IMG/VR virus record: IMGVR_UViG_3300025000_000056
Reading direction: 5' to 3' (one strand)
Length of the DNA: 64,000 nt
Source of the DNA: a virus
Taxonomy: Duplodnaviria; Heunggongvirae; Uroviricota; Caudoviricetes
The translations under genes and the position numbers were made by a program. This document shows positions 8,396 to 26,168 of the stretch, one piece after another. Below the pieces are notes generated by a model. That model was not told the origin of the DNA. It saw only the letters and a list, made by a program, of their open reading frames with translations, and did no database searches. Positions within the stretch are counted from its first letter, which is position 1, and every line of letters begins with the position of its first letter.

Positions 8396-8464
8396 TAGCC
8401 ATTAGCTCAGTGAATAGAGTCCCGTTAATAACGGTGATGCGTGAGTTTGATCCTCACATGGCTA
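8396..8464 (+). ncRNA. 69-nt tRNA-like element: perfect 7-bp acceptor, D-arm and T-arm, but anticodon arm replaced by a 5-bp stem with 3-nt loop (TLE family)
   Basis: Acceptor tagccat/atggcta; D-arm gctc-agtgaata-gagt; anticodon arm ccgtt-aat-aacgg; T-arm gtgag-tttgatc-ctcac. Lies in the ORF-poor stretch 8173-8567, inside two weak tracked ORFs. Confidence 0.5.
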
Positions 8465-17952: not shown

Positions 17953-17977
17953 CTTAAATAACTTAGGAGGTGGATTT

Positions 17978-18379
17978 GTGTTAATCGAACGTATTGTTGA
18001 TAACAAACGTTTCAAAGTTGAAATTGACTTTAAAGAAATTAAGAGTCATATTGCTGAGGCTGCTGAAGAGTACAGCGATCATCCTGGAGGTGATATAGAA
18101 TTACCATTAGCTAATTATCACCCTCAGTGTGCAGAAGCTCTAGCTATTATCAACGCTATCGAAGAGAATAATGATTTAGCCATCGAGCTGATTATAAACA
18201 CTGCCAAGAAAAAGAACGGCTGGTTCCGTAAGGGCGCTGTCTATTATCATCGAACATATGGTGATTTATCGTATGAATCACAGGATGAATACGGTTCTCG
18301 TACGTATGCCTTTCGTTGTAAGGCTCATGATGATGATCTCATAGAACTTACATTCGAGACTTATGTTGAAAAATGGTAA
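17978..18379 (+). CDS. hypothetical protein (133 aa)
   Basis: GTG start 7 nt after AGGAGG. The tracked ORF from 17909 only translates the preceding hairpin. Confidence 0.5.
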   Translation: MLIERIVDNKRFKVEIDFKEIKSHIAEAAEEYSDHPGGDIELPLANYHPQCAEALAIINAIEENNDLAIELIINTAKKKNGWFRKGAVYYHRTYGDLSYESQDEYGSRTYAFRCKAHDDDLIELTFETYVEKW

Positions 18380-18591
18380 ATGAGAAATGTCCAAATGAAT
18401 GCTCTTCTTTTACCCAAGCGACACTAAATAACATCACGATCCTTATCGATAGTAAAGTATTTCATCCAACGGGATGGAGTTGCTTACGATGTGGTCATTT
18501 TATAGCAACTTCTCCTAGAGAGGTCTATCCAGTGCCAATTATTAAACCTAAGAGGTTATCATGGTTTGCTAGATTGTTTAGACGATCTTAG
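18373..18591 (+). CDS. hypothetical small protein (CPNEC..CLRCGH)
   Basis: ORF track; weak RBS. Confidence 0.3.
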   Translation: MVNEKCPNECSSFTQATLNNITILIDSKVFHPTGWSCLRCGHFIATSPREVYPVPIIKPKRLSWFARLFRRS

Positions 18592-18704
18592 TGATGATAT
18601 CCTCACTAAATAGAATATCAGAGCCATTACCCTTTATGGTTTAAGGAGTCATTACCCCACTCCTTATCTGGTATTCTCCTTAGTGAGGAAACTCACTGAA
18701 TTAT

Positions 18705-19161
18705 GGGCCCGAGTTAGTTTCGACAGGGTGAATAGAGTATGTCCTCTGAGATGACAGTCGGAAAGACGACATTAAAGCAAATGCTACACCTATGAAAAAC
18801 GCTGCCTAATTTTAATTAATTAGGAACTACAGCCCTAAAACGGAGAGTACCCAACGACTCCTGAAGGTCGAAGACTGGGTAGTTAATAGTGGCGAAGTTG
18901 GCATACGCACGCTTGAAATAAAGCGAGGTCAAAGAATTAACTATGGCTGCATGCAAATGTGGAAGACGAAAGTCCCGTGCGGGTTCGAGTCCCGTCTATT
19001 AACGCATGTTTCCTGCATCGTATAATGCAGGTGGTGGAGGCGAGGGTTTAATAAGCGCTGGTTGCAATTCCAGTAGGTTAGACACTCAGATTTCTCAGTA
19101 GTAACAGGGACAAAGGGTAGACATTCTGGACACGGGGGGCGGCTCCCCGTCGGGTCCGCCA
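18705..19161 (+). ncRNA. ssrA: tmRNA-like gene (ssrA-like)
   Basis: 5' end gggcccgagttagtTTCGACAGGG matches the tmRNA tRNA-like domain consensus. Internal tag frame gca aat gct aca cct atg aaa aac GCT GCC TAA (ANATPMKNAA-stop) matches the Bacillus-type GCTGCCTAA tag end. 3' end cgggtcc-g-CCA is complementary to 5' gggcccg over 7 bp. Confidence 0.55.
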
Positions 19162-19170
19162 GCTAATTTT

Positions 19171-19363
19171 GCGGATATAGCTCAATGGTAGAGCGGCTAT
19201 CGAGAGATAGCGGTTAATTACGGAGTTATATAAACCATGTTGATCACATGAATAAAGTAATTCTTTGGAGATTAACTGTATAAGTGAGGAGTATGTGATT
19301 AGTCCGGACGAAAGCATATAAGTAGCTTATATACGGTTGGGGGTTCGAGCCCTTCTATCCGCT
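19171..19363 (+). ncRNA. tRNA-like element (TLE family, GAGA tetraloop arm) interrupted by a 123-nt insertion flanked by a 5-bp direct repeat CGGTT
   Basis: 5' part gcggata-ta-gctc-aatggta-gagc-g-gctatc-gaga-gatagc-ggtt (19171-19215). 3' part ggggg-ttcgagc-ccttc-tatccgc (19339-19362), with a perfect 7-bp acceptor. Joined pieces give 69 nt. CGGTT occurs at 19211-15 and 19334-38. Confidence 0.5.
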
Positions 19364-19379
19364 ACAATATTATTCTCAT

Positions 19380-19460
19380 GCGGGGTATAGTTTAGTGGTT
19401 TAAAACGAGCGAAGGAAGTTTATGATCGCTATCAGGGGTTCGAATCCCTTTGCCCTGCCC
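19380..19460 (+). tRNA. tRNA-like gene with encoded CCA and an expanded 13-nt anticodon loop AGGAAGTTTATGA
   Basis: Acceptor gcggggt/gccctgc (with G-U pairs); D-arm gttt-agtggttt-aaac; stem agcga/tcgct closed by a 13-nt loop; T-arm agggg-ttcgaat-ccctt; CCA at 19458-60. Confidence 0.45.
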
Positions 19461-19667
19461 AATCATCTGGAAGGTCTTGGTGACAGAGAAATATGTTAGA
19501 TGCGTCAGACATCAGTATTAAACTCTTGCAGTTCAATTCTGCACTTCCGCGATCATTTGTTAGTTTTGATTATATAGGTACTCTGTAGCCTGTAGTAATT
19601 GCAGGACAATGAGCTAAGTTGAGCTTAAATAACTCAAGCCTATATGATCTTAATTTGCTTACATAGC

Positions 19668-19695
19668 GTCTCTTCGAGGCGTTTTGTATATAGCC
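19668..19695 (+). terminator. imperfect hairpin GCGTCTC-TTCG-AGGCG followed by TTTTG
   Basis: Shares the TTACATAGCGTCTCT sequence with the hairpin at 20782. Confidence 0.4.
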
Positions 19696-19747
19696 TGATG
19701 GCTTATTAAATATTATCTAGTTGTAAAGAATATGAGGAGGAAAAGAA

Positions 19748-20767
19748 ATGAAAATCGTAACCGAAAACAACACGAAGAAGGAAATCTTATCTGCTTATTC
19801 CGAGGCCTTGGAATTGTTAAAAGCTAGTGAAGGTATCATAGTTGATCCAGCCAAAGAAATGTCCATGAAAAAAGCCGGAGAGACTTTGACTAAAGCCACT
19901 GAAACTGTTGGTCTTAATGTTGAAGACCAAATTGCAAAATTGCAGAAGAGTGTCGCCAGCATACTTGGTAATTTAGCGAATAGTTTTACGGAAGAAATTA
20001 AAACATTCAATGATTTACAAGAAGCAATCGCCCTCAAAGAATCCGAACTGAAAGAGCTGTTTGACATTGAAAAAGAAGCGTTCGCCTTAACTGCGTTGGT
20101 CAATGCAAATAGGGAAACCAAAGATAAGTTTAAGGCTGCTTTCGATGAAGACAAAGCAAGAATGCAGGCTGAACTTGATCAATTAAAAGCTGATTTGAAG
20201 GCTGAAAAAGCTGCTCATTTGAATGAAACCTATCTGCAAGACGAAGAAGTTAAACGGAAACGTGCCAGGGATCAAGAAGAATACACGTACGACTTCGCAA
20301 GGAAGAAGCAACTTGACGATAACGATTGGGAAGATGAGAAAAAGGTACGTGAAAAACAGTTATCGGAACTTGAAAGTGAAGTCAAAACAAGACTTGAACT
20401 GGTAACAACAAGGGAAGAAACGATTGACGACCTTAAGGCTAAAGTGGAAGAAATTCCGCAATTAGTTGACGCTGCCAGAAAAGCTGGAGAAGCTGAAGGC
20501 GAAAAGAAAGCTGGAACAAGTTTCGGATTTGAAAAGAGAGCAATCGAATCCAAGACAACTTCTGAAAAGACGATACTTGAAAATAAGGTTGCCATGCTAG
20601 AGGCTCAGCTCAATAAAGCGAATGACGAATTAACGAGACTAAATGAAGATTTGAAAACTGCATATAGCAAAATTCAGGAAACCGCTACGGCAGCTATCGA
20701 ATCTCAAGCCAATTCGCGAATGGTTAATAGTCTTGAGGCCTTAGTGAAAGATAAAACTCAGAAGTAA
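19748..20767 (+). CDS. coiled-coil protein (339 aa), embedded in the RNA-gene cluster
   Basis: GAGGAGG RBS; Lys/Glu-rich heptad-like composition throughout. Confidence 0.55.
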   Translation: MKIVTENNTKKEILSAYSEALELLKASEGIIVDPAKEMSMKKAGETLTKATETVGLNVEDQIAKLQKSVASILGNLANSFTEEIKTFNDLQEAIALKESELKELFDIEKEAFALTALVNANRETKDKFKAAFDEDKARMQAELDQLKADLKAEKAAHLNETYLQDEEVKRKRARDQEEYTYDFARKKQLDDNDWEDEKKVREKQLSELESEVKTRLELVTTREETIDDLKAKVEEIPQLVDAARKAGEAEGEKKAGTSFGFEKRAIESKTTSEKTILENKVAMLEAQLNKANDELTRLNEDLKTAYSKIQETATAAIESQANSRMVNSLEALVKDKTQK

Positions 20768-20781
20768 AGATTTAATCGTTA

Positions 20782-20815
20782 CATAGCGTCTCTCAAGAGA
20801 GACGCTATGTAAATT
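20782..20815 (+). terminator. perfect hairpin ACATAGCGTCTCT-CAAGA-GAGACGCTATGT
   Basis: 13-bp inverted repeat immediately after the stop codon. Confidence 0.5.
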
Positions 20816-20833
20816 ATTTCAACGTATTACATG

Positions 20834-20907
20834 ATTCTATTGGTGTACGGACGCACGCCCTGCTACCAGGCAGTGAAGGGCGAGTTCGATTCTCGCAACA
20901 GAATCCA
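20834..20907 (+). tRNA. tRNA-like gene with encoded CCA; anticodon arm not canonical by eye
   Basis: Acceptor ttctatt/aacagaa (6 of 7 bp); D-stem gtgt/gcac; T-arm gcgag-ttcgatt-ctcgc; CCA at 20905-07. Confidence 0.4.
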
Positions 20908-20911
20908 TCAT

Positions 20912-20985
20912 GGCCGGATAGTGTAAGGAAGCACGCGCTACTCTTCATAGCGAAGGGAGAGTTCAATTCTCTCAGACGGCTGCCA
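20912..20985 (+). tRNA. tRNA-Lys(CUU)-like with encoded CCA
   Basis: D-arm gtgt-aaggaa-gcac; anticodon arm cgcta-CTCTTCA-tagcg; T-arm gagag-ttcaatt-ctctc; acceptor only partly paired (ggccgga / agacggc). Confidence 0.5.
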
Positions 20986-21113
20986 TTGTTATCTTTAGTT
21001 AAGATTTATCTTAACTATTAATTTTAGATGGAAAGCCCCTAAAATAGACGTAGAGATAAGTGGCGAAGGGGACGGGAGCGATATGATATGGTGAGTCGTT
21101 CCAAGCAATTATC

Positions 21114-21233
21114 ACCGAGGTACCCAAGTGGTTAGGGAGCGTATCCGGCGCGCCTCTCCGCTGTAAAGAGATGTAATCTTCTATGGGGAGCGGTAAACGT
21201 AATAGGCGGGTTCAAATCCCGTCCTCGGTGCCA
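21114..21233 (+). tRNA. 120-nt tRNA-like gene (type-II-like 3-bp D-stem) with about 40-50 extra nucleotides; encoded CCA
   Basis: Acceptor accgagg/cctcggt (perfect 7 bp); D-arm ccc-aagtggtta-ggg; T-arm gcggg-ttcaaat-cccgt; CCA at 21231-33; internal palindrome GGCGCGCC. Confidence 0.45.
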
Positions 21234-21258
21234 TATTAATTAAGAGGAGGAAGGATTT

Positions 21259-21501
21259 ATGAGAAACACGTCGGGTGCTAATTGTATTGAAGAAGCAGAG
21301 GTTCAGTTTGTCGAAGTCAATGTTCCAGTTCTTGCTCAGGTGATCTACTCTGGTAATAGAACCGTCGTCATTTTGCCAGACGGCTCTAAGGGGATTGCCA
21401 AATGTTGTTTTGAAGATGTCTTCAATAAAAAGATAGGTCACGAGTTAGCTCTTGGAAGAGCTATTGCAACTAGGGACGGCAAAAGGTATCATAAAGCTTA
21501 A
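21259..21501 (+). CDS. hypothetical protein (80 aa) between tRNA-like genes
   Basis: ORF track; GAGGAGG RBS. Confidence 0.45.
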   Translation: MRNTSGANCIEEAEVQFVEVNVPVLAQVIYSGNRTVVILPDGSKGIAKCCFEDVFNKKIGHELALGRAIATRDGKRYHKA

Positions 21502-21516
21502 ACTTATTATTCTCAT

Positions 21517-21677
21517 GGCGAGGTGGCCGAGCGGTTGAAGGCGCTAGTCAAGGGATACGATAGTTAAAGGTCTAGACGGAGGAAGTTTATGATCGTCAAA
21601 ACTATTTCCCAGCAACCGGTACTGAGCTCTAAACTATCTACGAGTGATGTTCGAAAGTTCGAATCTTTCCCTTGCCG
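21517..21677 (+). tRNA. 161-nt tRNA-like gene: Ser/Leu/Tyr-type 5' half and canonical T-arm/acceptor separated by about 75 extra nucleotides
   Basis: Acceptor ggcgagg/ccttgcc (7 bp with one G-U); D-arm gcc-gagcggttgaa-ggc; T-arm gaaag-ttcgaat-ctttc; internal hairpin gacgg-AGGAAGTTTATGA-tcgtc. Confidence 0.45.
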
Positions 21678-21701
21678 ACGTAATTAAAGGAGATGATTTT
21701 A

Positions 21702-21866
21702 TTGATCGTTAAATGCGATATCGTTAAGTGTGATTTTAATTACAGTGGCTTCTGTCGTGCTAACGTTCTTGAAATTGTACCTAATCATATACTTATGCCT
21801 GGTGACCCAGGTTATTTTGAGTACATTACGTGTTCAACGTATGTAAAGTTGGAACATCATGATTAA
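21702..21866 (+). CDS. small Cys-containing protein (54 aa)
   Basis: TTG start 10 nt after AAGGAG; below the ORF-track size cutoff. Confidence 0.35.
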   Translation: MIVKCDIVKCDFNYSGFCRANVLEIVPNHILMPGDPGYFEYITCSTYVKLEHHD

Positions 21867-22008
21867 AGACGAGCAAGCTGAAGCCGAAATATTTCCTGAA
21901 TTTGTGAGAGAACTCATAGGCGATTATCCTAGTGTCTATGATATGAAGAAGGGTCGCTTTCTTAGTAAAGAGGAAGTAATCCGAAAAATGAATAGAGAGG
22001 AGGAATAA
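21859..22008 (+). CDS. small hypothetical protein (49 aa)
   Basis: ATG overlaps the upstream stop; below the ORF-track size cutoff. Confidence 0.3.
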   Translation: MIKDEQAEAEIFPEFVRELIGDYPSVYDMKKGRFLSKEEVIRKMNREEE

Positions 22009-22010
22009 AC

Positions 22011-22265
22011 ATGGATCGTAATCTAATGGCTGAACTTGATGATATTATCAATAAGGGAGTAGCAATTGCCGAAGTAAACCGGCAAACTATGAGTACTATT
22101 AAAGAGTTTCAAAATGCGCTCATGGAATTCTCTAAGGAAAACGACATTCCTAAATTAGTTGCTGAAATTATGGAAAAACATCCAGAAAAACGCCCGGAAC
22201 TACAAAAGATTGTTCTGGCGTTTCATTGCGAAGGAAAACGCGTTGAAGATTCACTAATTCGTTAA
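22011..22265 (+). CDS. hypothetical protein
   Basis: ORF track; GAGGAGG RBS. Confidence 0.5.
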   Translation: MDRNLMAELDDIINKGVAIAEVNRQTMSTIKEFQNALMEFSKENDIPKLVAEIMEKHPEKRPELQKIVLAFHCEGKRVEDSLIR

Positions 22266-22273
22266 TTAACATG

Positions 22274-22440
22274 GTGATCGTATTTCAATCGGTAGAAGCT
22301 GTCTTGCAGAAAGCTGATAGTCAGGAGGAACGTGATAGGATCGCTACCTAACATGGCTTGACATGACGGTTGTGAAAGCAATACGTACTTTAAGAAGACC
22401 TGTGGCAGAGTTGCGAGTTCAATTCTCGTCGATCACCCCA
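22274..22440 (+). tRNA. 167-nt tRNA-like gene with encoded CCA and about 90 extra internal nucleotides
   Basis: Acceptor gtgatcg/cgatcac (perfect 7 bp); D-arm tttc-aatcggta-gaag; T-arm gcgag-ttcaatt-ctcgt; CCA at 22438-40; insert contains aggaggaacgtgataggatcgcta, related to the 13-nt loop motif. Confidence 0.45.
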
Positions 22441-22462
22441 ATTAAATCCAAGGAGGTTATCA

Positions 22463-22762
22463 ATGATTACAGCCGGTATAATTATTAACATCATACTACT
22501 GATCATAACTATTGTTGCAGGCATTTGGATGATGGTGGAAGATGCTTTAAATCCTGATAACATTCTTGATTTATTCAAGAATGTTATTAAGGTCAAGCAT
22601 CTTCTATTCTTATTAGTTCCAGGTGTCTTAATCGGTATTTTCTTACTCAAAGCTGGTATTACATTCGTCTTAAGCTTTGAACAAGATGACGATGATGATG
22701 AGCCAGATTCAGTTTGGAATAAACCTATATCACTTCGTAAGAGATACGTAGACGAGGAGTGA
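22463..22762 (+). CDS. membrane protein with acidic tail
   Basis: ORF track; AAGGAGG RBS; hydrophobic N-terminal two-thirds. Confidence 0.5.
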   Translation: MITAGIIINIILLIITIVAGIWMMVEDALNPDNILDLFKNVIKVKHLLFLLVPGVLIGIFLLKAGITFVLSFEQDDDDDEPDSVWNKPISLRKRYVDEE

Positions 22763-22986
22763 TTTGTATGATGCGAAATCTACTTAAGATCTTTGCTAAA
22801 AATACACTTAAGGCAACGATACTTTATTGTCCTTTTTGTGCGAGTCCTAAAACAAAATATCACGGACTAGTACAAAAAGACGGTAAGAATAGTAAAACTG
22901 ATAATTATTCAATTACTTGTCTTGCCTGTGGAGCCTCTGGTAATGTTCAAGAAGTTTGGCTTAAAGCGCCAGAAAAAGCTCTATAA
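22759..22986 (+). CDS. zinc-ribbon protein (CPFC...CLAC)
   Basis: ORF track. Confidence 0.45.
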   Translation: MICMMRNLLKIFAKNTLKATILYCPFCASPKTKYHGLVQKDGKNSKTDNYSITCLACGASGNVQEVWLKAPEKAL

Positions 22987-23127
22987 TAACTACATGAGGG
23001 TTGGCAGGTGCCAGGATACGTTAGGTCTACGCAGTTCAAGTCTGCCGAGAGCGGGGAAGTTTATGCCGTTTGGTTAACCTTGATGGTTCGATACCATCAA
23101 ACCCTCACTATATTCAAGGAGGCTGTT

Positions 23128-23430
23128 ATGGCAAAGATATTAGTCATCGAAGACTCTAAAGCTTATCGACGTCGTTGTTATAAACAGCCAGAGATATCTC
23201 ATGAGCCTAATTTAGATCATCAACATCGTATTGCTGAGATTAATAGGAGCCTTAAGTTTATTCGGTGGACTCGGTGGAGTGTATTATTATTCTTATTTCT
23301 CGGCAGTTTATTAGGTTGTACTATTAACTATGGCGATATTAAGATGATTCCATATATCGCTATGCTCCTTATTGCTGGAATTGCATGTTACTTTTTTAAC
23401 GAAGAGGAGAAAAAGAATGAACCTAATTAA
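23128..23430 (+). CDS. small membrane protein
   Basis: ATG after AAGGAGG; tracked ORF start 23008 is unlikely. Confidence 0.4.
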   Translation: MAKILVIEDSKAYRRRCYKQPEISHEPNLDHQHRIAEINRSLKFIRWTRWSVLLFLFLGSLLGCTINYGDIKMIPYIAMLLIAGIACYFFNEEEKKNEPN

Positions 23431-24178
23431 ATCAGAACAATTTGGTGCTATAAGTTGTGATTTATATCAAGATAGTAAAGGGGAATATTTCATAACTCGT
23501 AAGCAAATCGGTGAAGCCTTAGAGTATGCCAATCCACAAAAGGCTATCGATAAAATTCATAGCCGTAATAAGACTCGACTTGATGCTTTTTCAGCTACCG
23601 TCATATTGACGGCAACTGATGGGAAGACTTATAAGACGAATCTTTATTCGGCAAAAGGTGTTTATGAAATTTGTCGTTTCAGTCATCAGCCAAAAGCTAA
23701 TGAGTTTTATGACTGGGTTTATGACTTGCTAGAAAACTTAAGAACAGGCAAGGCTCAGATTAGCTTCACGATGCCTCAAACGAAGATCGAATTGATCGAA
23801 GCCTGGTTAGCTTCTGAAAAGAAGAACGTCGTACTAGAGCAAGAAAAACTAGCTTTAGAGCAAACTAATTTAGTATTGCTTCCAAAGGCTAAATCGTTTG
23901 ATACCTTTATGAACGCCGAAGGCAATCAATCAATGAAGAAAGTTGCCAAAAGCTTAGGTATTGGTCGTAATAAACTCTTTGAATTCTTACGTGAAGAAAA
24001 GATTCTTATGAGTGATAATACGCCTTATCAGGAGTATATGGATCGAGATTACTTTGTTGTTGAACAGCGACCATGCGGCCCTGAAGACAAACAGTTCTTC
24101 AAAGCCGTAACGTATGTATCCAATAAGGGTATTATTTTTATCGAGAGATTGCTTAAGAAAAAGGGGATGATAGCCTGA
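23417..24178 (+). CDS. phage antirepressor (BRO-N / KilA-C type)
   Basis: ATG after GAGGAG. N-terminal Bro-N-like region (..FITRKQIGEALEY..) and C-terminal antirepressor-like region. Confidence 0.6.
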   Translation: MNLIKSEQFGAISCDLYQDSKGEYFITRKQIGEALEYANPQKAIDKIHSRNKTRLDAFSATVILTATDGKTYKTNLYSAKGVYEICRFSHQPKANEFYDWVYDLLENLRTGKAQISFTMPQTKIELIEAWLASEKKNVVLEQEKLALEQTNLVLLPKAKSFDTFMNAEGNQSMKKVAKSLGIGRNKLFEFLREEKILMSDNTPYQEYMDRDYFVVEQRPCGPEDKQFFKAVTYVSNKGIIFIERLLKKKGMIA

Positions 24179-24525
24179 TGCGATGGAAAGGTTATAATCT
24201 AAATTCTTATGGTGATTTAATGAGCAATGGTATTGACCGGTGTGATACACGAGAAGAAGCCCAAGAGTTTATGAAACTTTATCTTACTATGAATCCTAAT
24301 GCTTATGCTAATATTGGTTATATGTCAGGCTATTATGGCCATGATGACGCGAAGCGTATCCGTGATTGGTTTGGCGTTGTTCATCCTATCTTTGGTGATA
24401 CTAATCCTACACCGGATGAAGCATATAGAGCAGGCTTAGAATGGGGAAAGAATGGATCAATTGACAATGCTCTACAAGAAACAGGGGCCGCTCAAATTCG
24501 TTCTATTGTTATACCGGAGGTATAA
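24178..24525 (+). CDS. hypothetical protein ending in the IVIPE-type tail (..IRSIVIPEV)
   Basis: TGATG overlap with the upstream gene; C-terminal motif family. Confidence 0.45.
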   Translation: MRWKGYNLNSYGDLMSNGIDRCDTREEAQEFMKLYLTMNPNAYANIGYMSGYYGHDDAKRIRDWFGVVHPIFGDTNPTPDEAYRAGLEWGKNGSIDNALQETGAAQIRSIVIPEV

Positions 24526-24527
24526 GT

Positions 24528-24722
24528 ATGTTTATTTGCAATCAGTGTTTAACAAATAATTATACCAATCAATCAAATGGCATTGTAAGCTATGGATCAT
24601 GCGAATTATGTAATAAAACCAAGCATTGTTTTGATATCCCTAGTAGGTATCTAACTTCACGATTGAAATCTCGTGAAGAAATAGGTCGTGATAAAATCCG
24701 TGAAATTATAATACCGGATTAG
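24528..24722 (+). CDS. small zinc-ribbon protein, IVIPD-tail family (..EEIGRDKIREIIIPD)
   Basis: CNQC...CELC plus the conserved C-terminal motif. Confidence 0.5.
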   Translation: MFICNQCLTNNYTNQSNGIVSYGSCELCNKTKHCFDIPSRYLTSRLKSREEIGRDKIREIIIPD

Positions 24723-24734
24723 TATTGACATTTC

Positions 24735-24800
24735 TGACAATATCACGAACTAGCTTAATTTGTTACAATATGTTATACTTAATGTAATAAAATGAATTGG
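24735..24800 (+). promoter_or_regulatory. consensus promoter-leader motif (tttgttacaatatgttatacttaatgtaat)
   Basis: Member of the recurring promoter family. Confidence 0.45.
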
Positions 24801-24810
24801 AGGAATTCAA

Positions 24811-25197
24811 ATGACATCCTTAGAAAAACTTAAACGTAAATTCATAGGTGCTATGGTCTGTGTTTTCGACAATGATAATCAATCACATGAATTTAATGTG
24901 GTTGCCGTAGTTGAGAGCAACGACAATACGTATTTAGGCCTACTTCCTAAAGAAGATTCGGACGAAGGCGCGTTAATTATGCGTTATGTAATTGATGAAG
25001 AAGTTATCAAACAAGGTATTGCTGAACATCCGGAACTTGCTGCTAGTGGCGCTATTCCATTCACTGCTGAAGTTATAACGGACGATGAATTAATTGCTGT
25101 TCAACCGCTCTTTCAAAACTATGATTTTGAAGCGGATCATGAGTTCCTTACAGCACAATTTAAACTCGAACAGGCTCAACTCGATGACGTTGGATAA
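24811..25197 (+). CDS. hypothetical acidic protein
   Basis: ORF track; GGAGG RBS. Confidence 0.5.
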   Translation: MTSLEKLKRKFIGAMVCVFDNDNQSHEFNVVAVVESNDNTYLGLLPKEDSDEGALIMRYVIDEEVIKQGIAEHPELAASGAIPFTAEVITDDELIAVQPLFQNYDFEADHEFLTAQFKLEQAQLDDVG

Positions 25198-25477
25198 AAT
25201 TACATGTCCTTATTGTGGGAGGGAATTTTATGACTTAAATCCTTCCCACTTAAAGACTCACGGAAAGACCATTGCAATGTGTCGTGCAGAATTTCCAGAC
25301 ATTCCAAATAGACAATATTCTAGACCTTTAATTTCTAAAAGTAAACCATATAATCCAAGTGAATCAGATATCTATGCTTATTTTCAGAATAAAGGCACAG
25401 AGCGATTACGAGCATCTGCTAATGGAGCTAAGTGTAGTAGTCAGTCTAAAATTCGTATTCTTGCAAGCCCTAAGTAA
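25184..25477 (+). CDS. zinc-finger protein (CPYC...H...H)
   Basis: Internal ATG overlapping the upstream stop; tracked start 25094 is unlikely. Confidence 0.35.
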   Translation: MTLDKITCPYCGREFYDLNPSHLKTHGKTIAMCRAEFPDIPNRQYSRPLISKSKPYNPSESDIYAYFQNKGTERLRASANGAKCSSQSKIRILASPK

Positions 25478-25488
25478 CTACATATCTA

Positions 25489-25553
25489 CTCCGTAGTCAT
25501 ACGGAGTATATCAAAGGGTTCAGGTTAAATTATCTGAACCCTTTGATATACTT
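25489..25553 (+). terminator. two adjacent hairpins, the second with a 17-bp stem (TATATCAAAGGGTTCAG...CTGAACCCTTTGATATA)
   Basis: Inverted repeats read from sequence. Confidence 0.5.
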
Positions 25554-25572
25554 GAAGCAAGGAGGAATTAAT

Positions 25573-25725
25573 ATGGCAAATCCCATAAGTAAGATACGAC
25601 AGGATCTTTATAAGATGGTTGGCATGTTAGGTGATATTCAAGCTATAATTGAAGGACCCGAAGCCATGTTTAAACGCATGATGCGTAAAGCTAAGTATAA
25701 AGCCATTAGGAAGGTGATCAAATGA
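25573..25725 (+). CDS. small basic protein (50 aa)
   Basis: ATG after AAGGAGG. Confidence 0.4.
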   Translation: MANPISKIRQDLYKMVGMLGDIQAIIEGPEAMFKRMMRKAKYKAIRKVIK

Positions 25726-26168
25726 TTGACTGGGACGGAATTAAAAGCTTTCTTTACTTTCCACTTTCAATACGTCATATTGTAACGCGACAGTTTTGGA
25801 TTGATATGATTACGAGTGAAACAACAACACCATGGGGTAAAACATCCGAGATCACAGGGATTACGATCTTAGCATCACCTATTCGCCTTGCTGGTACGGT
25901 ATTCTTTTGGTTTATAGCAAGTGTTGTTTCGATCGTATTATTACCCTTTGCATTTATTGCTAATATTAAAATCTCTTATGAAAGTGAACCTAGTGAACTA
26001 GGTAATATGTGGGCTAAACACATGGACGATCTAAGAGCTGAAAAACCTGTTGTAAAGTCTAATTTGTTTGATCCTGATGGTAGGAAAACAACGATTTTCG
26101 ATCGTAAACCTGAGGAGTGTGATAATATTGGAGAAACGATGGAGCATAGGCGCTCAATGCCTTTCTAA
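25722..26168 (+). CDS. membrane protein with C-terminal ..RRSMPF tip
   Basis: ORF track; two predicted TM segments; PF C-terminus. Confidence 0.45.
   Translation: MIDWDGIKSFLYFPLSIRHIVTRQFWIDMITSETTTPWGKTSEITGITILASPIRLAGTVFFWFIASVVSIVLLPFAFIANIKISYESEPSELGNMWAKHMDDLRAEKPVVKSNLFDPDGRKTTIFDRKPEECDNIGETMEHRRSMPF

What the first reader, a model, noticed from the sequence alone, without database searches (positions are those of the whole stretch)
21114..22440. tRNA-like genes of 120-167 nt with canonical termini but large internal insertions too short for group I introns
Three loci (21114-21233, 21517-21677, 22274-22440) have perfect or near-perfect 7-bp acceptor stems, textbook D-arms (two of type-II Ser/Leu/Tyr style, gcc-gagcggttgaa-ggc) and T-arms, and two have encoded CCA. 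They are 40-90 nt longer than any tRNA. The extra sequence lies between the D-arm and T-arm and is only 40-90 nt, below the size of self-splicing group I introns. Bacteria and phages have no BHB splicing endonuclease. The inserts share sequence motifs with each other and with the 123-nt insertion at 19216. This suggests a novel class of tRNA intervening sequences, permuted or nested elements, or tRNA-like domains of longer RNAs.
Basis: seen in the sequence. Interest (0 to 1): 0.7.

Follow-up and report, generated by a model that had tools for sequence, protein, structure and literature searches.

The report
Phage tRNA look-alikes without anticodons
Three genes in a 220-kb groundwater phage keep the upper half of a tRNA intact, but 54-110 bases of unique sequence sit where the anticodon loop should be; they are most likely non-decoding tRNA mimics, like the still-unexplained T4 "stable RNAs", rather than tRNAs with a new kind of intron.

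Summary
Loci 21114-21233, 21517-21677 and 22273-22440 each have a 7-bp acceptor stem, a D-arm with GG and a canonical T-arm; two encode CCA. My scan finds 8 such loci on the + strand, 0 on the - strand and 0.8 per shuffled window.

The intron reading is not supported.
- ARAGORN finds "introns" just as readily when the middle of each locus is shuffled.
- There is no BHB motif and no group I/II or ribozyme match.
- No ligase or splicing endonuclease appears among the 50 ORFs scanned.
- The two best "spliced" solutions need the anticodon stem shifted by one base relative to homologous tRNAs. One of them pairs a tRNA-His body (G-1:C73) with a Cys anticodon.

The bodies derive from Leu/Tyr-like, Ser and His tRNAs. 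These belong to at least 12 tRNA-like genes plus a tmRNA-like gene in one RNA island; only one of them has an ordinary 5-bp/7-nt anticodon arm, and that one carries an unusual C37. Some have 3-4-nt loops that no splicing could repair.

Best reading, at about 0.5 confidence: processed, possibly chargeable, non-decoding tRNA mimics akin to T4 rnaC. Their function is unknown. No relatives close enough for covariation analysis were found.

The parts
21114..21233 (+). Locus A: 120-nt tRNA-like gene on a Leu/Tyr-like (class-II-like) body. Acceptor 21114-21120 / 21223-21229. D-arm 21123-21137. A26 at 21138. Closing stem GCGT 21139-21142 / ACGT 21197-21200 in the canonical 27-30/40-43 register. Variable loop AATAG 21201-21205. 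T-arm 21206-21222. G73 plus CCA 21230-21233.
   Evidence: The 3' 29 nt match Salmonella tRNA-Leu at 27/29. A closing stem in this register occurs in 4.4% of shuffles.
21143..21196 (+). Insert of locus A: 54 nt occupying the place of the 7-nt anticodon loop. It contains two Tyr-type loop heptamers, CTGTAAA at 21161 and ATGTAAT at 21171.
   Evidence: folding z-score -0.55, not unusually stable; two such heptamers occur in 0.7% of shuffles; the pattern was chosen post hoc.
21517..21677 (+). Locus B: 161-nt tRNA-like gene on a tRNA-Ser body. Acceptor 21517-21523 / 21670-21676. D-arm GCC-GAGCGGTTGAA-GGC 21526-21542. G26 at 21543. T-arm 21653-21669. G73 at 21677. No encoded CCA.
   Evidence: 5' 26 nt near-identical to phage tRNA-Ser.
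21544..21652 (+). Middle of locus B: 109 nt with no anticodon stem in either register. The only long-range helices are GGGA..GATAGTT 21552-21565 with AACTATT..TCCC 21600-21610. ARAGORN's 'CTA suppressor' solution uses CTCTAAA-CTATC at 21627-21638.
   Evidence: no closing stem. ARAGORN's solution is matched or beaten by 89% of shuffles.
21575..21597 (+). Hairpin GACG-[GA GGAAGTTTATG AT]-CGTC inside B. The same 11-nt loop on different stems occurs at 16546-16574, 19405-19433 and 23047-23073.
   Evidence: 4 exact copies (6 matches counting those with one mismatch, against 1.2 expected; no shuffle reached 6)..
22273..22440 (+). Locus C: 168-nt tRNA-like gene on a tRNA-His body. G-1 at 22273 pairs with C73 at 22437. 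Acceptor 22274-22280 / 22430-22436. D-arm 22283-22298. C26 at 22299. Closing stem TGTC 22300-22303 / GGCA 22404-22407. T31 at 22304 is mismatched with T39 at 22403. Variable loop GAGTT 22408-22412. T-arm 22413-22429. CCA 22438-22440.
   Evidence: The 3' 28 nt are 96% identical to Morganella phage tRNA-His, and many phage tRNA-His genes match. Both halves align. A closing stem in this register occurs in 4.2% of shuffles.
22305..22402 (+). Insert of locus C: 98 nt in place of the anticodon loop. It contains two His-type loop heptamers, TTGTGAA at 22370 and CTGTGGC at 22400. The second lies in a possible hairpin ACTTT-[AAGAAGAC CTGTGGC]-AGAGT at 22387-22411.
   Evidence: z-score -0.71; two or more such heptamers occur in 0.6% of shuffles.
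19171..19362 (+). Same family, locus G: tRNA-Gly-like body (G1C2G3, U73). The anticodon stem is capped by a GAGA tetraloop (GCTATC-GAGA-GATAGC). A 123-nt insertion at 19216-19338 sits in the variable loop, flanked by 5-nt direct repeats CGGTT.
19380..19461 (+). Same family, locus H: the most tRNA-like member, with G-1:C73 and CCA, but a 13-nt loop AGGAAGTTTATGA on a normal 5-bp anticodon stem.
   Evidence: (Rfam tRNA, 40.4 bits).
22998..23110 (+). Same family, locus D: acceptor GAGGGTT/AACCCTC and T-arm GATGG-TTCGATA-CCATC. The GGAAGTTTATG hairpin sits in the anticodon position. An enlarged first arm contains a second T-arm-like hairpin.
16830..16973 (+). Same family, short members F' (16830-16896) and I (16905-16973): full acceptor, D and T arms, but loops of 3-4 nt in the anticodon position (CCCC-GTAA-GGGT; GACGT-TGAC-GCGTT).
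   Evidence: (I: Rfam tRNA, 30.4 bits).
8396..8464 (+). Same family, short member L: the anticodon position is CCGTT-AAT-AACGG.
20835..20985 (+). Same family, paralogues J (20835-20907, 8-nt loop) and K (20912-20985). K has a CTT anticodon in a normal 7-nt loop with C37, and two mismatches in the acceptor stem. Both are followed by CCA.
   Evidence: J versus K alignment, z = 12.

Best explanation
The three loci are tRNA-derived genes for non-decoding, tRNA-shaped RNAs (tRNA mimics). They are not interrupted tRNA genes.

Each keeps the part of a tRNA that the processing and charging machinery reads: the 7-bp acceptor stem, the discriminator base, the D/T elbow and CCA (or a site where CCA can be added). 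The anticodon loop is replaced by 54-110 nt of unique sequence. In A and C this sequence grows out of a retained anticodon stem.

Proposed mechanism:
1. Each locus is transcribed with the + strand RNA island.
2. The 5' end is cut by RNase P. U lies at -1 in B, and at -2 before the retained G-1 in C.
3. The 3' end is trimmed to the encoded CCA (A, C), or CCA is added (B).
4. The RNA folds into an L-shaped upper half carrying a foreign lower limb.
5. The bodies are of the Ser, His and class II Leu/Tyr-like kinds, whose synthetases rely little or not at all on the anticodon, so the RNAs may be aminoacylated.
6. With no 7-nt anticodon loop at the right distance, they cannot decode.
7. They then act as stable tRNA-shaped carriers or decoys. 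Possible targets are factors that read the acceptor end, the elbow or an anticodon-loop motif: host tRNA-targeting defence nucleases or transferases, modification enzymes, synthetases or EF-Tu.

Shown here: the anatomy, the tRNA parentage, the absence of a recoverable anticodon arm, and membership in a family of at least 12. Inferred: processing, charging and any decoy or carrier role.
For: 1. The upper half is intact in all loci, and the loci occur on one strand only, clustered at 8-23 kb: 8 on +, 0 on -, 0.8 per shuffle.
2. Parentage is clear: C is tRNA-His-like, with G-1:C73. B is tRNA-Ser-like. A is tRNA-Leu-like at its 3' half, with a class-II-like D-arm. G is tRNA-Gly-like.
3. A and C retain a 4-bp stem exactly at positions 27-30/40-43 with a 5-nt variable loop. 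Each has p of about 0.044. So the insert replaces the loop.
4. Intron reconstructions are not better than chance. With only the middle shuffled, ARAGORN -i still calls an intron-containing tRNA in 55% (A), 88% (B) and 22% (C) of cases. A score level at or above the native one is reached by 55%, 89% and 23% of shuffles.
5. The C and G reconstructions give Cys and Tyr anticodons on His-type and Gly-type bodies.
6. Short family members with 3-4-nt or GNRA-capped loops (I, L, F', and G after its insertion is removed) cannot be rescued by any splicing. Loss of the anticodon is therefore a general feature of the island.
7. In two relatives, an orthologous class II tRNA conserves its body but not the length or sequence of its anticodon loop.
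8. Precedent: T4 rnaC (139 nt) and rnaD (119 nt) lie in the T4 tRNA cluster. rnaC folds into a tRNA-like four-way junction with T-arm CCGGG-UUCGAAU-CCCGG. Their function is still unknown (PMC9697503).
Against: - No transcript data exist, so processing, charging and stability are all inferred.
- The inserts are not more stably folded than shuffled sequence (z-scores -0.15 to -1.1). This weakens the idea of a structured payload.
- C carries two His-type anticodon-loop heptamers (p of about 0.006) and A carries two Tyr-type ones (p of about 0.007, chosen post hoc). These could be relics, decoy sites, or a hint of unconventional processing that restores an anticodon.
- B's reconstruction (Ser body plus loop CTCTAAA, as I recall the loop of the E. 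coli supD suppressor) is internally consistent. By my rough estimate it has a chance probability of about 0.02.
- Lak megaphages have 93-nt unexplained introns in otherwise canonical tRNAs (PMC6784885, Table S6). Short phage tRNA introns therefore do exist.
- A has G73, which is not the A73 that, from memory, LeuRS and TyrRS require.
- The phage is a single clonal population with no close relatives, so there is no covariation test.
Confidence: 0.5

Rival explanations
1. The loci are genuine decoding tRNAs interrupted by a new type of short intervening sequence. The insert would be removed by an unknown phage or host activity (an endonuclease plus an RNA ligase such as RtcB or Rnl), as may happen for the 'enigmatic introns' of Lak megaphage tRNAs.
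For: - ARAGORN -i returns Arg(CCG), a CTA suppressor and Cys(GCA) after removing 26, 79 and 93 nt.
- B's solution has loop CTCTAAA on a Ser body, an identity that does not depend on the anticodon.
- Lak tRNA-Tyr has a 93-nt intron at position 37/38 (PMC6784885).
- Cognate-type anticodon heptamers occur twice in C and twice in A.
- For C, excising two segments would leave TTGTGAA between the retained stem strands. This follows from reading the coordinates.
Against: - The solutions are no better than those from shuffled middles.
- For B and C the anticodon stem must start at position 26, one base earlier than in homologous tRNAs. B's stem also has a C-U mismatch.
- C would be a His-charged tRNA reading Cys codons.
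- No BHB motif lies at any compatible splice pair.
- There is no group I/II or ribozyme hit at E up to 10.
- No RNA ligase, splicing endonuclease or RNA end-healing kinase (PNK) appears in the 50 window ORFs scanned.
- TAG is used as an ordinary stop, and reading through TAG gives no gain in ORF length within the window.
- The short anticodon-less members of the family are left unexplained.
Confidence: 0.2
2. The loci are decaying or rearranged tRNA pseudogenes. Ordinary phage tRNA genes were disrupted in the anticodon arm by insertions or duplications and now have no function.
For: - The inserts are unique, not unusually structured and not repeated elsewhere in the window.
- G's insertion is flanked by a 5-nt direct repeat, like a simple insertion event.
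- The duplicated anticodon-loop heptamers in A and C look like duplication scars.
- B lacks any anticodon stem.
Against: - Damage is confined to the anticodon limb in all members, about 12 in number. Nine loci, including A, B and C, keep 7/7 acceptor pairs, and J and K have one or two mismatches. T-arms with canonical loops, U8, A14, G18G19 and, in five loci, the encoded CCA also stay intact. Random decay would not spare these.
- The identity marker G-1:C73 is retained.
- The loci sit in tight intergenic slots, about 20-25 nt upstream of ribosome-binding sites, in a compact operon.
Confidence: 0.13
3. The loci are cis-acting processing signals ('tRNA punctuation'). The tRNA-shaped upper halves recruit RNase P and RNase Z to cut the polycistronic transcript into separate small mRNAs, and the RNA itself has no further role.
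For: - A, B, C and D each lie directly upstream of a small ORF with a Shine-Dalgarno site: ends at 21233, 21677, 22440 and 23110 against ORF starts at 21259, about 21703, 22463 and 23129.
- Only the RNase P/Z recognition elements are conserved.
- The anticodon limb is free to vary.
Against: - The encoded CCA, G-1:C73 and the synthetase-type D-arms are not needed for cleavage.
- Several family members lie in a 3.8-kb ORF-free stretch with no mRNA to punctuate.
- Cleavage signals would not need 54-110-nt inserts.
Confidence: 0.1

Closest known systems
Phage T4 stable RNAs rnaC (species 1, 139 nt) and rnaD (species 2, 119 nt)
   Same: They are encoded inside the phage tRNA cluster on the tRNA strand and are 119-139 nt long. 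rnaC has a canonical T-arm and paired termini, and folds as a tRNA-like four-way junction with enlarged arms and no anticodon arm. Function is still listed as unknown (PMC9697503).
   Different: No sequence similarity was seen: the 4.4-kb query containing the loci found no T4 match. rnaC's terminal helix is imperfect. A, B and C have full tRNA D-arms, perfect 7-bp acceptor stems and recognisable Ser/His/Leu-like parentage. rnaD shows no T-arm.
'Enigmatic introns' in Lak megaphage tRNA genes (Devoto et al. 2019, PMC6784885)
   Same: These are short insertions (for example 93 nt) in the anticodon region of tRNA genes of a huge phage. They are not group I and not BHB, and the mechanism is unknown. 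One intron is itself tRNA-like, echoing the nested tRNA-like elements seen here.
   Different: Lak genes regain a canonical, cognate anticodon stem-loop in the normal register when the intron is removed at 37/38, and intron-less alleles exist. Here no canonical arm is recoverable above chance, the identities conflict, and no intron-less allele was found.
Bacterial Y RNA-like YrlA (Rfam RF02553)
   Same: It is a non-decoding RNA that mimics the tRNA acceptor/T/D upper half and is carried by phages. Two relatives of this phage have YrlA-like elements next to the homologue of the 339-aa gene at window 19748-20767 (31-36 bits, below the gathering score of 69).
   Different: YrlA is circularly permuted: the acceptor stem is closed by a loop and the termini lie in the Ro-binding stem. 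A, B and C have free acceptor ends with CCA. No YrlA hit occurs in the window region scanned.
tmRNA
   Same: It is a tRNA-like, chargeable, non-decoding RNA with a large internal insertion. A tmRNA-like gene lies 2 kb upstream at 18706-19163.
   Different: A, B and C have complete D-arms, no G3-U70 pair and no tag-like reading frame.
Engineered 'tRNA scaffold' RNAs (Ponchon and Dardel 2007; from memory)
   Same: A foreign RNA replaces the anticodon loop on a retained anticodon stem, as in A and C. The tRNA body provides processing and stability.
   Different: That is an artificial design. No natural phage equivalent has been described, as far as my literature searches show.

Membership tests
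Canonical tRNA (Rfam RF00005) | 7-bp acceptor stem, discriminator base, D-arm with G18G19, T-arm with a T54-T55-C56-R57-A58 loop | tested here: met
   The signal is significant against shuffled windows.
Canonical tRNA (Rfam RF00005) | 5-bp anticodon stem with a 7-nt loop (U33, purine 37) in the canonical register; total length about 70-95 nt | tested here: not met
   ARAGORN with default settings gives no call. RF00005 gives no hit for A, B or C even at E up to 10. Lengths are 120-168 nt. The loop is replaced by 54-109 nt.
tRNA gene with group I (or group II) intron | Intron of about 200 nt or more with the conserved catalytic core | tested here: not met
   The inserts are 54-109 nt. There is no Intron_gpI, group II or small-ribozyme match at E up to 10 in 15000-26000.
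Archaeal/eukaryal-type tRNA intron | Bulge-helix-bulge motif at the splice sites and a splicing endonuclease | tested here: not met
   An exhaustive BHB search found no motif at splice pairs that give a tRNA-sized product. No endonuclease or ligase domain was found in 50 ORFs. The phage also has bacterial hallmarks: a tmRNA-like gene, Pol III alpha and RecA.
Lak-type 'enigmatic' phage tRNA introns | Excision restores a canonical anticodon arm with an anticodon that matches the tRNA body | tested here: not met
   The reconstructions are no better than those from shuffles. They need a register shift relative to homologues. C gives a His body with a Cys anticodon. B's solution is self-consistent but weak.
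Lak-type 'enigmatic' phage tRNA introns | Intron-plus and intron-minus alleles exist in related genomes | tested here: inconclusive
   The phage occurs as one clonal population. The nearest relatives share only 54% amino-acid identity in the 339-aa protein encoded at window 19748-20767 and lack these loci. The flanking ORFs have no homologues.
T4 rnaC/rnaD-like stable RNAs of phage tRNA clusters | 100-170-nt RNA gene inside a tRNA cluster, on the tRNA strand, with tRNA-like termini/T-arm but no anticodon arm | tested here: met
   A, B and C. T4 rnaC. This is a resemblance of kind only. Common ancestry was not shown.
T4 rnaC/rnaD-like stable RNAs of phage tRNA clusters | Accumulates as a stable, RNase P-processed, CCA-ended RNA during infection | not testable with these tools
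   This needs RNA from infected cells. The phage is uncultured (groundwater metagenome).
tmRNA | tRNA-Ala-like domain with G3-U70, no D-stem, and an internal tag reading frame ending in a stop codon | tested here: not met
   A, B and C have full D-arms and no G3-U70 pair. No conserved ORF was seen on reading the sequence. Rfam tmRNA hits lie only at 18667-19200.
YrlA (Y RNA-like) | Permuted tRNA-like domain with a loop-closed acceptor stem and a Ro-binding terminal stem | tested here: not met
   The topology is opposite (free acceptor ends). There is no RF02553 hit in 15000-26000.

The most novel reading that the evidence does not exclude
The phage encodes a battery of tRNA bodies that lack an anticodon but may still be chargeable (Ser, His, Leu/Tyr-like and Gly types, plus a tmRNA). 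Each carries a payload of 54-123 nt. In A and C the payload displays two copies of an anticodon-loop heptamer of the type expected for the body (firmly assigned for C, post hoc for A). This would be a new class of phage RNA. It could act as a decoy for host defences or enzymes that attack tRNA acceptor ends or anticodon loops, or as a non-ribosomal aminoacyl donor. Alternatively, the same loci could reveal a bacterial or phage tRNA splicing or re-ligation pathway of the still-unexplained Lak type.
Probability: 0.3. Interest if true: 0.8.

Novelty: new variant of a known kind. Interest (0 to 1): 0.55.

Why it matters
Phage tRNA clusters are usually read as codon-usage helpers or as spare parts against anticodon nucleases. 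Here a whole island of at least 12 tRNA-shaped genes has kept everything except the anticodon.

If these RNAs are stable and charged, phages make tRNA mimics for purposes other than decoding. That would give a comparative handle on the T4 rnaC/rnaD RNAs, whose function is still unknown decades after their discovery. It would also offer natural "tRNA scaffolds" for study.

If they turn out to be spliced, they would extend the Lak-phage puzzle of short, non-group-I tRNA introns to a second, unrelated phage lineage of Gram-positive type.

There is a practical point as well. Intron-mode tRNA finders assign anticodons to such loci, including an amber suppressor, that do not beat a shuffled control. 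Automatic annotation could therefore wrongly infer stop-codon recoding.

Tried and rejected
**Intron and ribozyme models**
- ARAGORN intron mode gave tidy solutions. They were rejected after the shuffled-middle controls, the register comparison with real tRNA-His and tRNA-Ser and the identity conflicts.
- BHB splicing: no motif was found.
- Group I/II introns or small ribozymes: no Rfam hits at E up to 10.
- Structured-payload idea: the inserts fold no better than shuffles.

**Splicing enzymes and recoding**
- Phage-encoded splicing or repair enzymes: Pfam scans of 50 window ORFs found none. Only HNH endonucleases and a calcineurin-like phosphoesterase turned up.
- TAG recoding, which would give B's 'suppressor' a role: no signal in the window.

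**Searches for relatives, for covariation or intron-less alleles**
- INPHARED blastn gave one short hit (72% over 108 nt, under a hypothetical-protein gene) in Bacillus phage YungSlug and nothing else.
- IMG/VR searches with three proteins found no close relative: one distant partial match (32% identity over about 120 residues, on a contig end with no tRNA called) and nothing from the other two.
- A motif scan of IMG/VR gave only chance hits.
- The protein database returned relatives at 54% identity or less for one gene. The 1179-aa protein (window 11107-14646) and the 80-aa ORF (window 21259-21501) matched only themselves.
- The JGI metagenome scan gave 7 distant loci without such elements.
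- A second exact-protein look-up showed a single clonal population.

**Other ideas**
- Inserts as repeated mobile elements: there are no other copies in the window.
- A target complementary to the GGAAGTTTATG loop: none in the window.
- A 22-nt match of B in a 642-kb phage was a chance hit in coding DNA.
- Short ORFs starting at the ATG of the GGAAGTTTATG hairpins: lengths and sequences are not conserved (4, 5, 25 and 32 codons, read).
Full report
**Context.** The window is part of a 220,824-bp contig from a groundwater metagenome (ERZ909597 / SRR1658469). The same sequence was recovered in more than 20 samples as one clonal population. Gene content points to a large tailed phage of a Gram-positive-type host. 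It has Pol III alpha, RecA, UvrD, SSB, a RecJ-like protein, ThyX and DNA ligase. Distant relatives are SPbeta-like. INPHARED gave only one short, low-identity match, and IMG/VR only one distant partial match.

**Checking the observation.** The three loci are as described.
- A (21114-21233): acceptor ACCGAGG/CCUCGGU, D-arm CCC-AAGUGGUUA-GGG, T-arm GCGGG-UUCAAAU-CCCGU, then G73 and CCA.
- B (21517-21677): acceptor GGCGAGG/CCUUGCC, D-arm GCC-GAGCGGUUGAA-GGC, T-arm GAAAG-UUCGAAU-CUUUC, G73, no CCA.
- C (22274-22440): acceptor GUGAUCG/CGAUCAC, D-arm UUUC-AAUCGGUA-GAAG, T-arm GCGAG-UUCAAUU-CUCGU, C73 and CCA. There is also a G at 22273 opposite C73.

A scanner that demands a 7/7-paired acceptor stem, a D-arm and a 5-bp T-stem with a TTCRA-type loop within 350 nt finds 8 loci on the + strand and none on the - strand. 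Shuffled windows give a mean of 0.8, both strands counted. Default ARAGORN and Rfam do not call A, B or C.

The claim that the inserts share motifs is not borne out. Only B shares a 19-nt hairpin with other loci.

**The loci belong to a larger family.** On the same strand between 8.4 and 23.1 kb there are at least 12 tRNA-shaped genes plus a tmRNA-like gene at 18706-19163. Only K has an ordinary 5-bp/7-nt anticodon arm, and K has C at position 37.
- Some members are of normal size but have loops of 3-4 nt: 8396-8464, 16830-16896 and 16905-16973.
- H (19380-19461; Rfam tRNA, 40 bits) has a 13-nt loop.
- G (19171-19362) has a GAGA-capped stem in the anticodon position. It also has a 123-nt insertion in the variable loop, flanked by CGGTT direct repeats.
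- A, B and C are the members with the largest replacements.

**Parentage.**
- C's 3' 28 nt are 96% identical to a phage tRNA-His, and dozens of phage tRNA-His genes match it. Both halves align with that tRNA. G-1:C73 is the histidine hallmark (established knowledge of HisRS identity).
- B's first 26 nt are nearly identical to phage and enterobacterial tRNA-Ser, and B has G73.
- A's 3' 29 nt match tRNA-Leu at 27/29. Its 3-bp D-stem is of the class II type.
- G has the acceptor stem and T-arm of phage tRNA-Gly.

Ser, Leu and, for the tmRNA, Ala synthetases ignore the anticodon, and HisRS relies mainly on G-1:C73 (established knowledge). This bias fits RNAs that must still be recognised at the acceptor end.

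**Where the insert sits.** Using the homologous tRNAs to fix the numbering gives the following.
- C has C26, then UGUC (27-30) pairing with GGCA (40-43), a U31-U39 mismatch and the 5-nt variable loop GAGUU.
- A has A26, GCGU pairing with ACGU, an A31-A39 mismatch and the variable loop AAUAG.

Such a stem in this exact register occurs in about 4% of shuffles for each locus. So in A and C the anticodon stem is retained, and the 7-nt loop is replaced by 54 and 98 nt respectively. B has no stem in either register.

**Testing the intron reading.** ARAGORN in intron mode returns Arg(CCG), a CTA suppressor and Cys(GCA) for A, B and C. Six findings count against these solutions.
1. When only the segment between the D-arm and T-arm is shuffled, ARAGORN still reports an intron-containing tRNA in 55%, 88% and 22% of cases. 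The native score level is equalled or exceeded by 55%, 89% and 23% of shuffles.
2. The B and C solutions start the anticodon stem at position 26, one base earlier than in their homologues. B's stem also contains a C-U mismatch.
3. C would carry a Cys anticodon on a His-identity body. G would carry a Tyr anticodon on a Gly-type body.
4. No bulge-helix-bulge motif exists at any splice pair that gives a tRNA-sized product.
5. There are no group I, group II or small-ribozyme matches at E up to 10. No ligase or splicing endonuclease appears among 50 ORFs.
6. TAG behaves as a normal stop codon in the window.

**What remains unexplained.**
- C contains two heptamers of the His anticodon-loop type, UUGUGAA and CUGUGGC. 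Two or more occur in 0.6% of shuffles.
- A contains two of the Tyr type, CUGUAAA and AUGUAAU, at 0.7%. That pattern was chosen after seeing the data.
- The hairpin with loop GGAAGUUUAUG occurs four times on different stems. Twice it sits exactly in the anticodon-arm position, and once it lies inside B.
- The inserts are not thermodynamically unusual.

These points keep open three options: decoy sites, duplication scars or unconventional processing.

**Relatives.** The only relatives found share 54% amino-acid identity or less in one protein. They have ordinary tRNAs and a class II tRNA whose anticodon loop differs in length and sequence between two orthologues. They also have YrlA-like Y RNAs: 31-36 bits, below threshold, but full-length and with covarying acceptor stems. 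tRNA mimicry thus seems to run in this phage lineage. No orthologues of A, B or C were found, so no covariation test is possible.

**Comparison with known systems.** The closest in kind are the T4 stable RNAs rnaC (139 nt) and rnaD (119 nt), which lie in the T4 tRNA cluster. rnaC folds, with z = -4.6, into a four-way junction with a canonical T-arm and paired ends. Their function is still unknown (PMC9697503).

Lak megaphage tRNAs carry unexplained introns of about 93 nt (PMC6784885; Table S6). Those regain canonical, cognate anticodon arms on excision, which A, B and C do not.

**Verdict.** The 'new intron class' interpretation is not supported.

The best reading is that A, B and C are tRNA-derived, non-decoding tRNA mimics, probably processed and possibly charged. 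This carries a confidence of about 0.5 for that nature; the specific role is unknown. Spliced tRNAs (0.2), pseudogenes (0.13) and pure processing signals (0.1) remain possible.

Noticed in passing
window 18706-19163 (+): A probable one-piece phage tmRNA that ARAGORN misses. The 5' end reads GGGCCCG..UUCGACAGGG. A tag frame encodes ..ANATPMKNAA, with its stop ending at 18811. The 3' end is CGGGUCC-G-CCA, giving a G3-U70 pair, but the T-loop is odd (GGCGGCU). A complete tRNA-like cloverleaf (18883-19002, with a canonical T-arm) is nested in its pseudoknot region.
   Followed up: partly
window 16546-16574, 19405-19433, 21575-21597, 23047-23073 (+): Four hairpins have the identical 11-nt loop GGAAGTTTATG on unrelated stems: 4 exact copies; counting 1-mismatch matches, 6 against 1.2 expected. 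The loop looks like a Shine-Dalgarno site plus AUG, but the downstream ORFs are not conserved. No complementary target occurs in the window.
   Followed up: partly
window 15900-16500 (+): A 600-nt ORF-free stretch with extreme GC skew (+0.52 to +0.55; G about three times C). It is made of loose GGTAAAGTAG-like repeats, and it opens a 3.8-kb region that is almost entirely non-coding.
   Followed up: partly
window 17480-17860 (+): Four hairpins with different, complementary stems and a conserved loop of the form ..AGT(A/G)GTTGAAA.. (for example GGCGTT-GAGAGTAGTTGAA-AACGCC). This looks like an unrecognised repeated RNA motif. Rfam gave only a weak CRISPR-DR chance hit.
   Followed up: no
window 8396-8464, 16830-16896, 16905-16973 (+): Normal-sized tRNA-like genes with intact acceptor, D and T arms, but only 3-4-nt loops (AAT, GTAA, TGAC) where the anticodon loop should be.
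   Followed up: partly
window 19171-19362 (+): A tRNA-Gly-like gene whose anticodon stem is capped by a GAGA tetraloop. A 123-nt insertion (19216-19338) lies in its variable loop, bounded by 5-nt direct repeats CGGTT. Removing one repeat and the insert leaves a neat 69-nt (192 - 123) anticodon-less cloverleaf.
   Followed up: yes
window: 5' flanks of 19381, 20835, 20912, 21517, 22273, 22998: Six tRNA-like genes are preceded by CAT, followed directly by G+1 or G-1. H and B share the 12-nt leader ATTATTCTCATG. TATTAT or TATAAT -10-like hexamers lie 6-8 nt upstream. This may mark individual promoters or a shared RNase P leader.
   Followed up: no
L002:3469-3581 and L126:294-418: The two nearest relatives carry a circularly permuted tRNA-like element upstream of the homologue of the window gene at 19748-20767. 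The order is T-arm, acceptor 3' strand, loop, acceptor 5' strand, D-arm, and the acceptor and T stems covary. It matches Rfam YrlA (Y RNA-like) over the full model at 31-36 bits, below the gathering score.
   Followed up: partly
L002:4736-5240 and L126:1581-2090: An orthologous class II tRNA with encoded ACCA has different, non-canonical anticodon loops in the two relatives (CATCAAA versus a 6-nt CTTGCA). It is followed by a conserved non-coding region of about 400 nt, of unknown nature.
   Followed up: no
L141:4355-5176, L142:4355-5176: SPbeta-like distant relatives encode a Thg1-family protein (tRNA-His guanylyltransferase / 3'-5' polymerase). This is of interest given the His-type G-1:C73 tRNA-likes in the window. 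None was seen in the window itself.
   Followed up: no
window 19470-19550 (+): The 5' region of the gene at 19748-20767 holds a further degenerate tRNA-like fold: GGAAG...CTTCC ends with a T-arm-like GCAG-TTCAATT-CTGC. This hairpin is nearly identical to one inside locus D (23031-23045).
   Followed up: no
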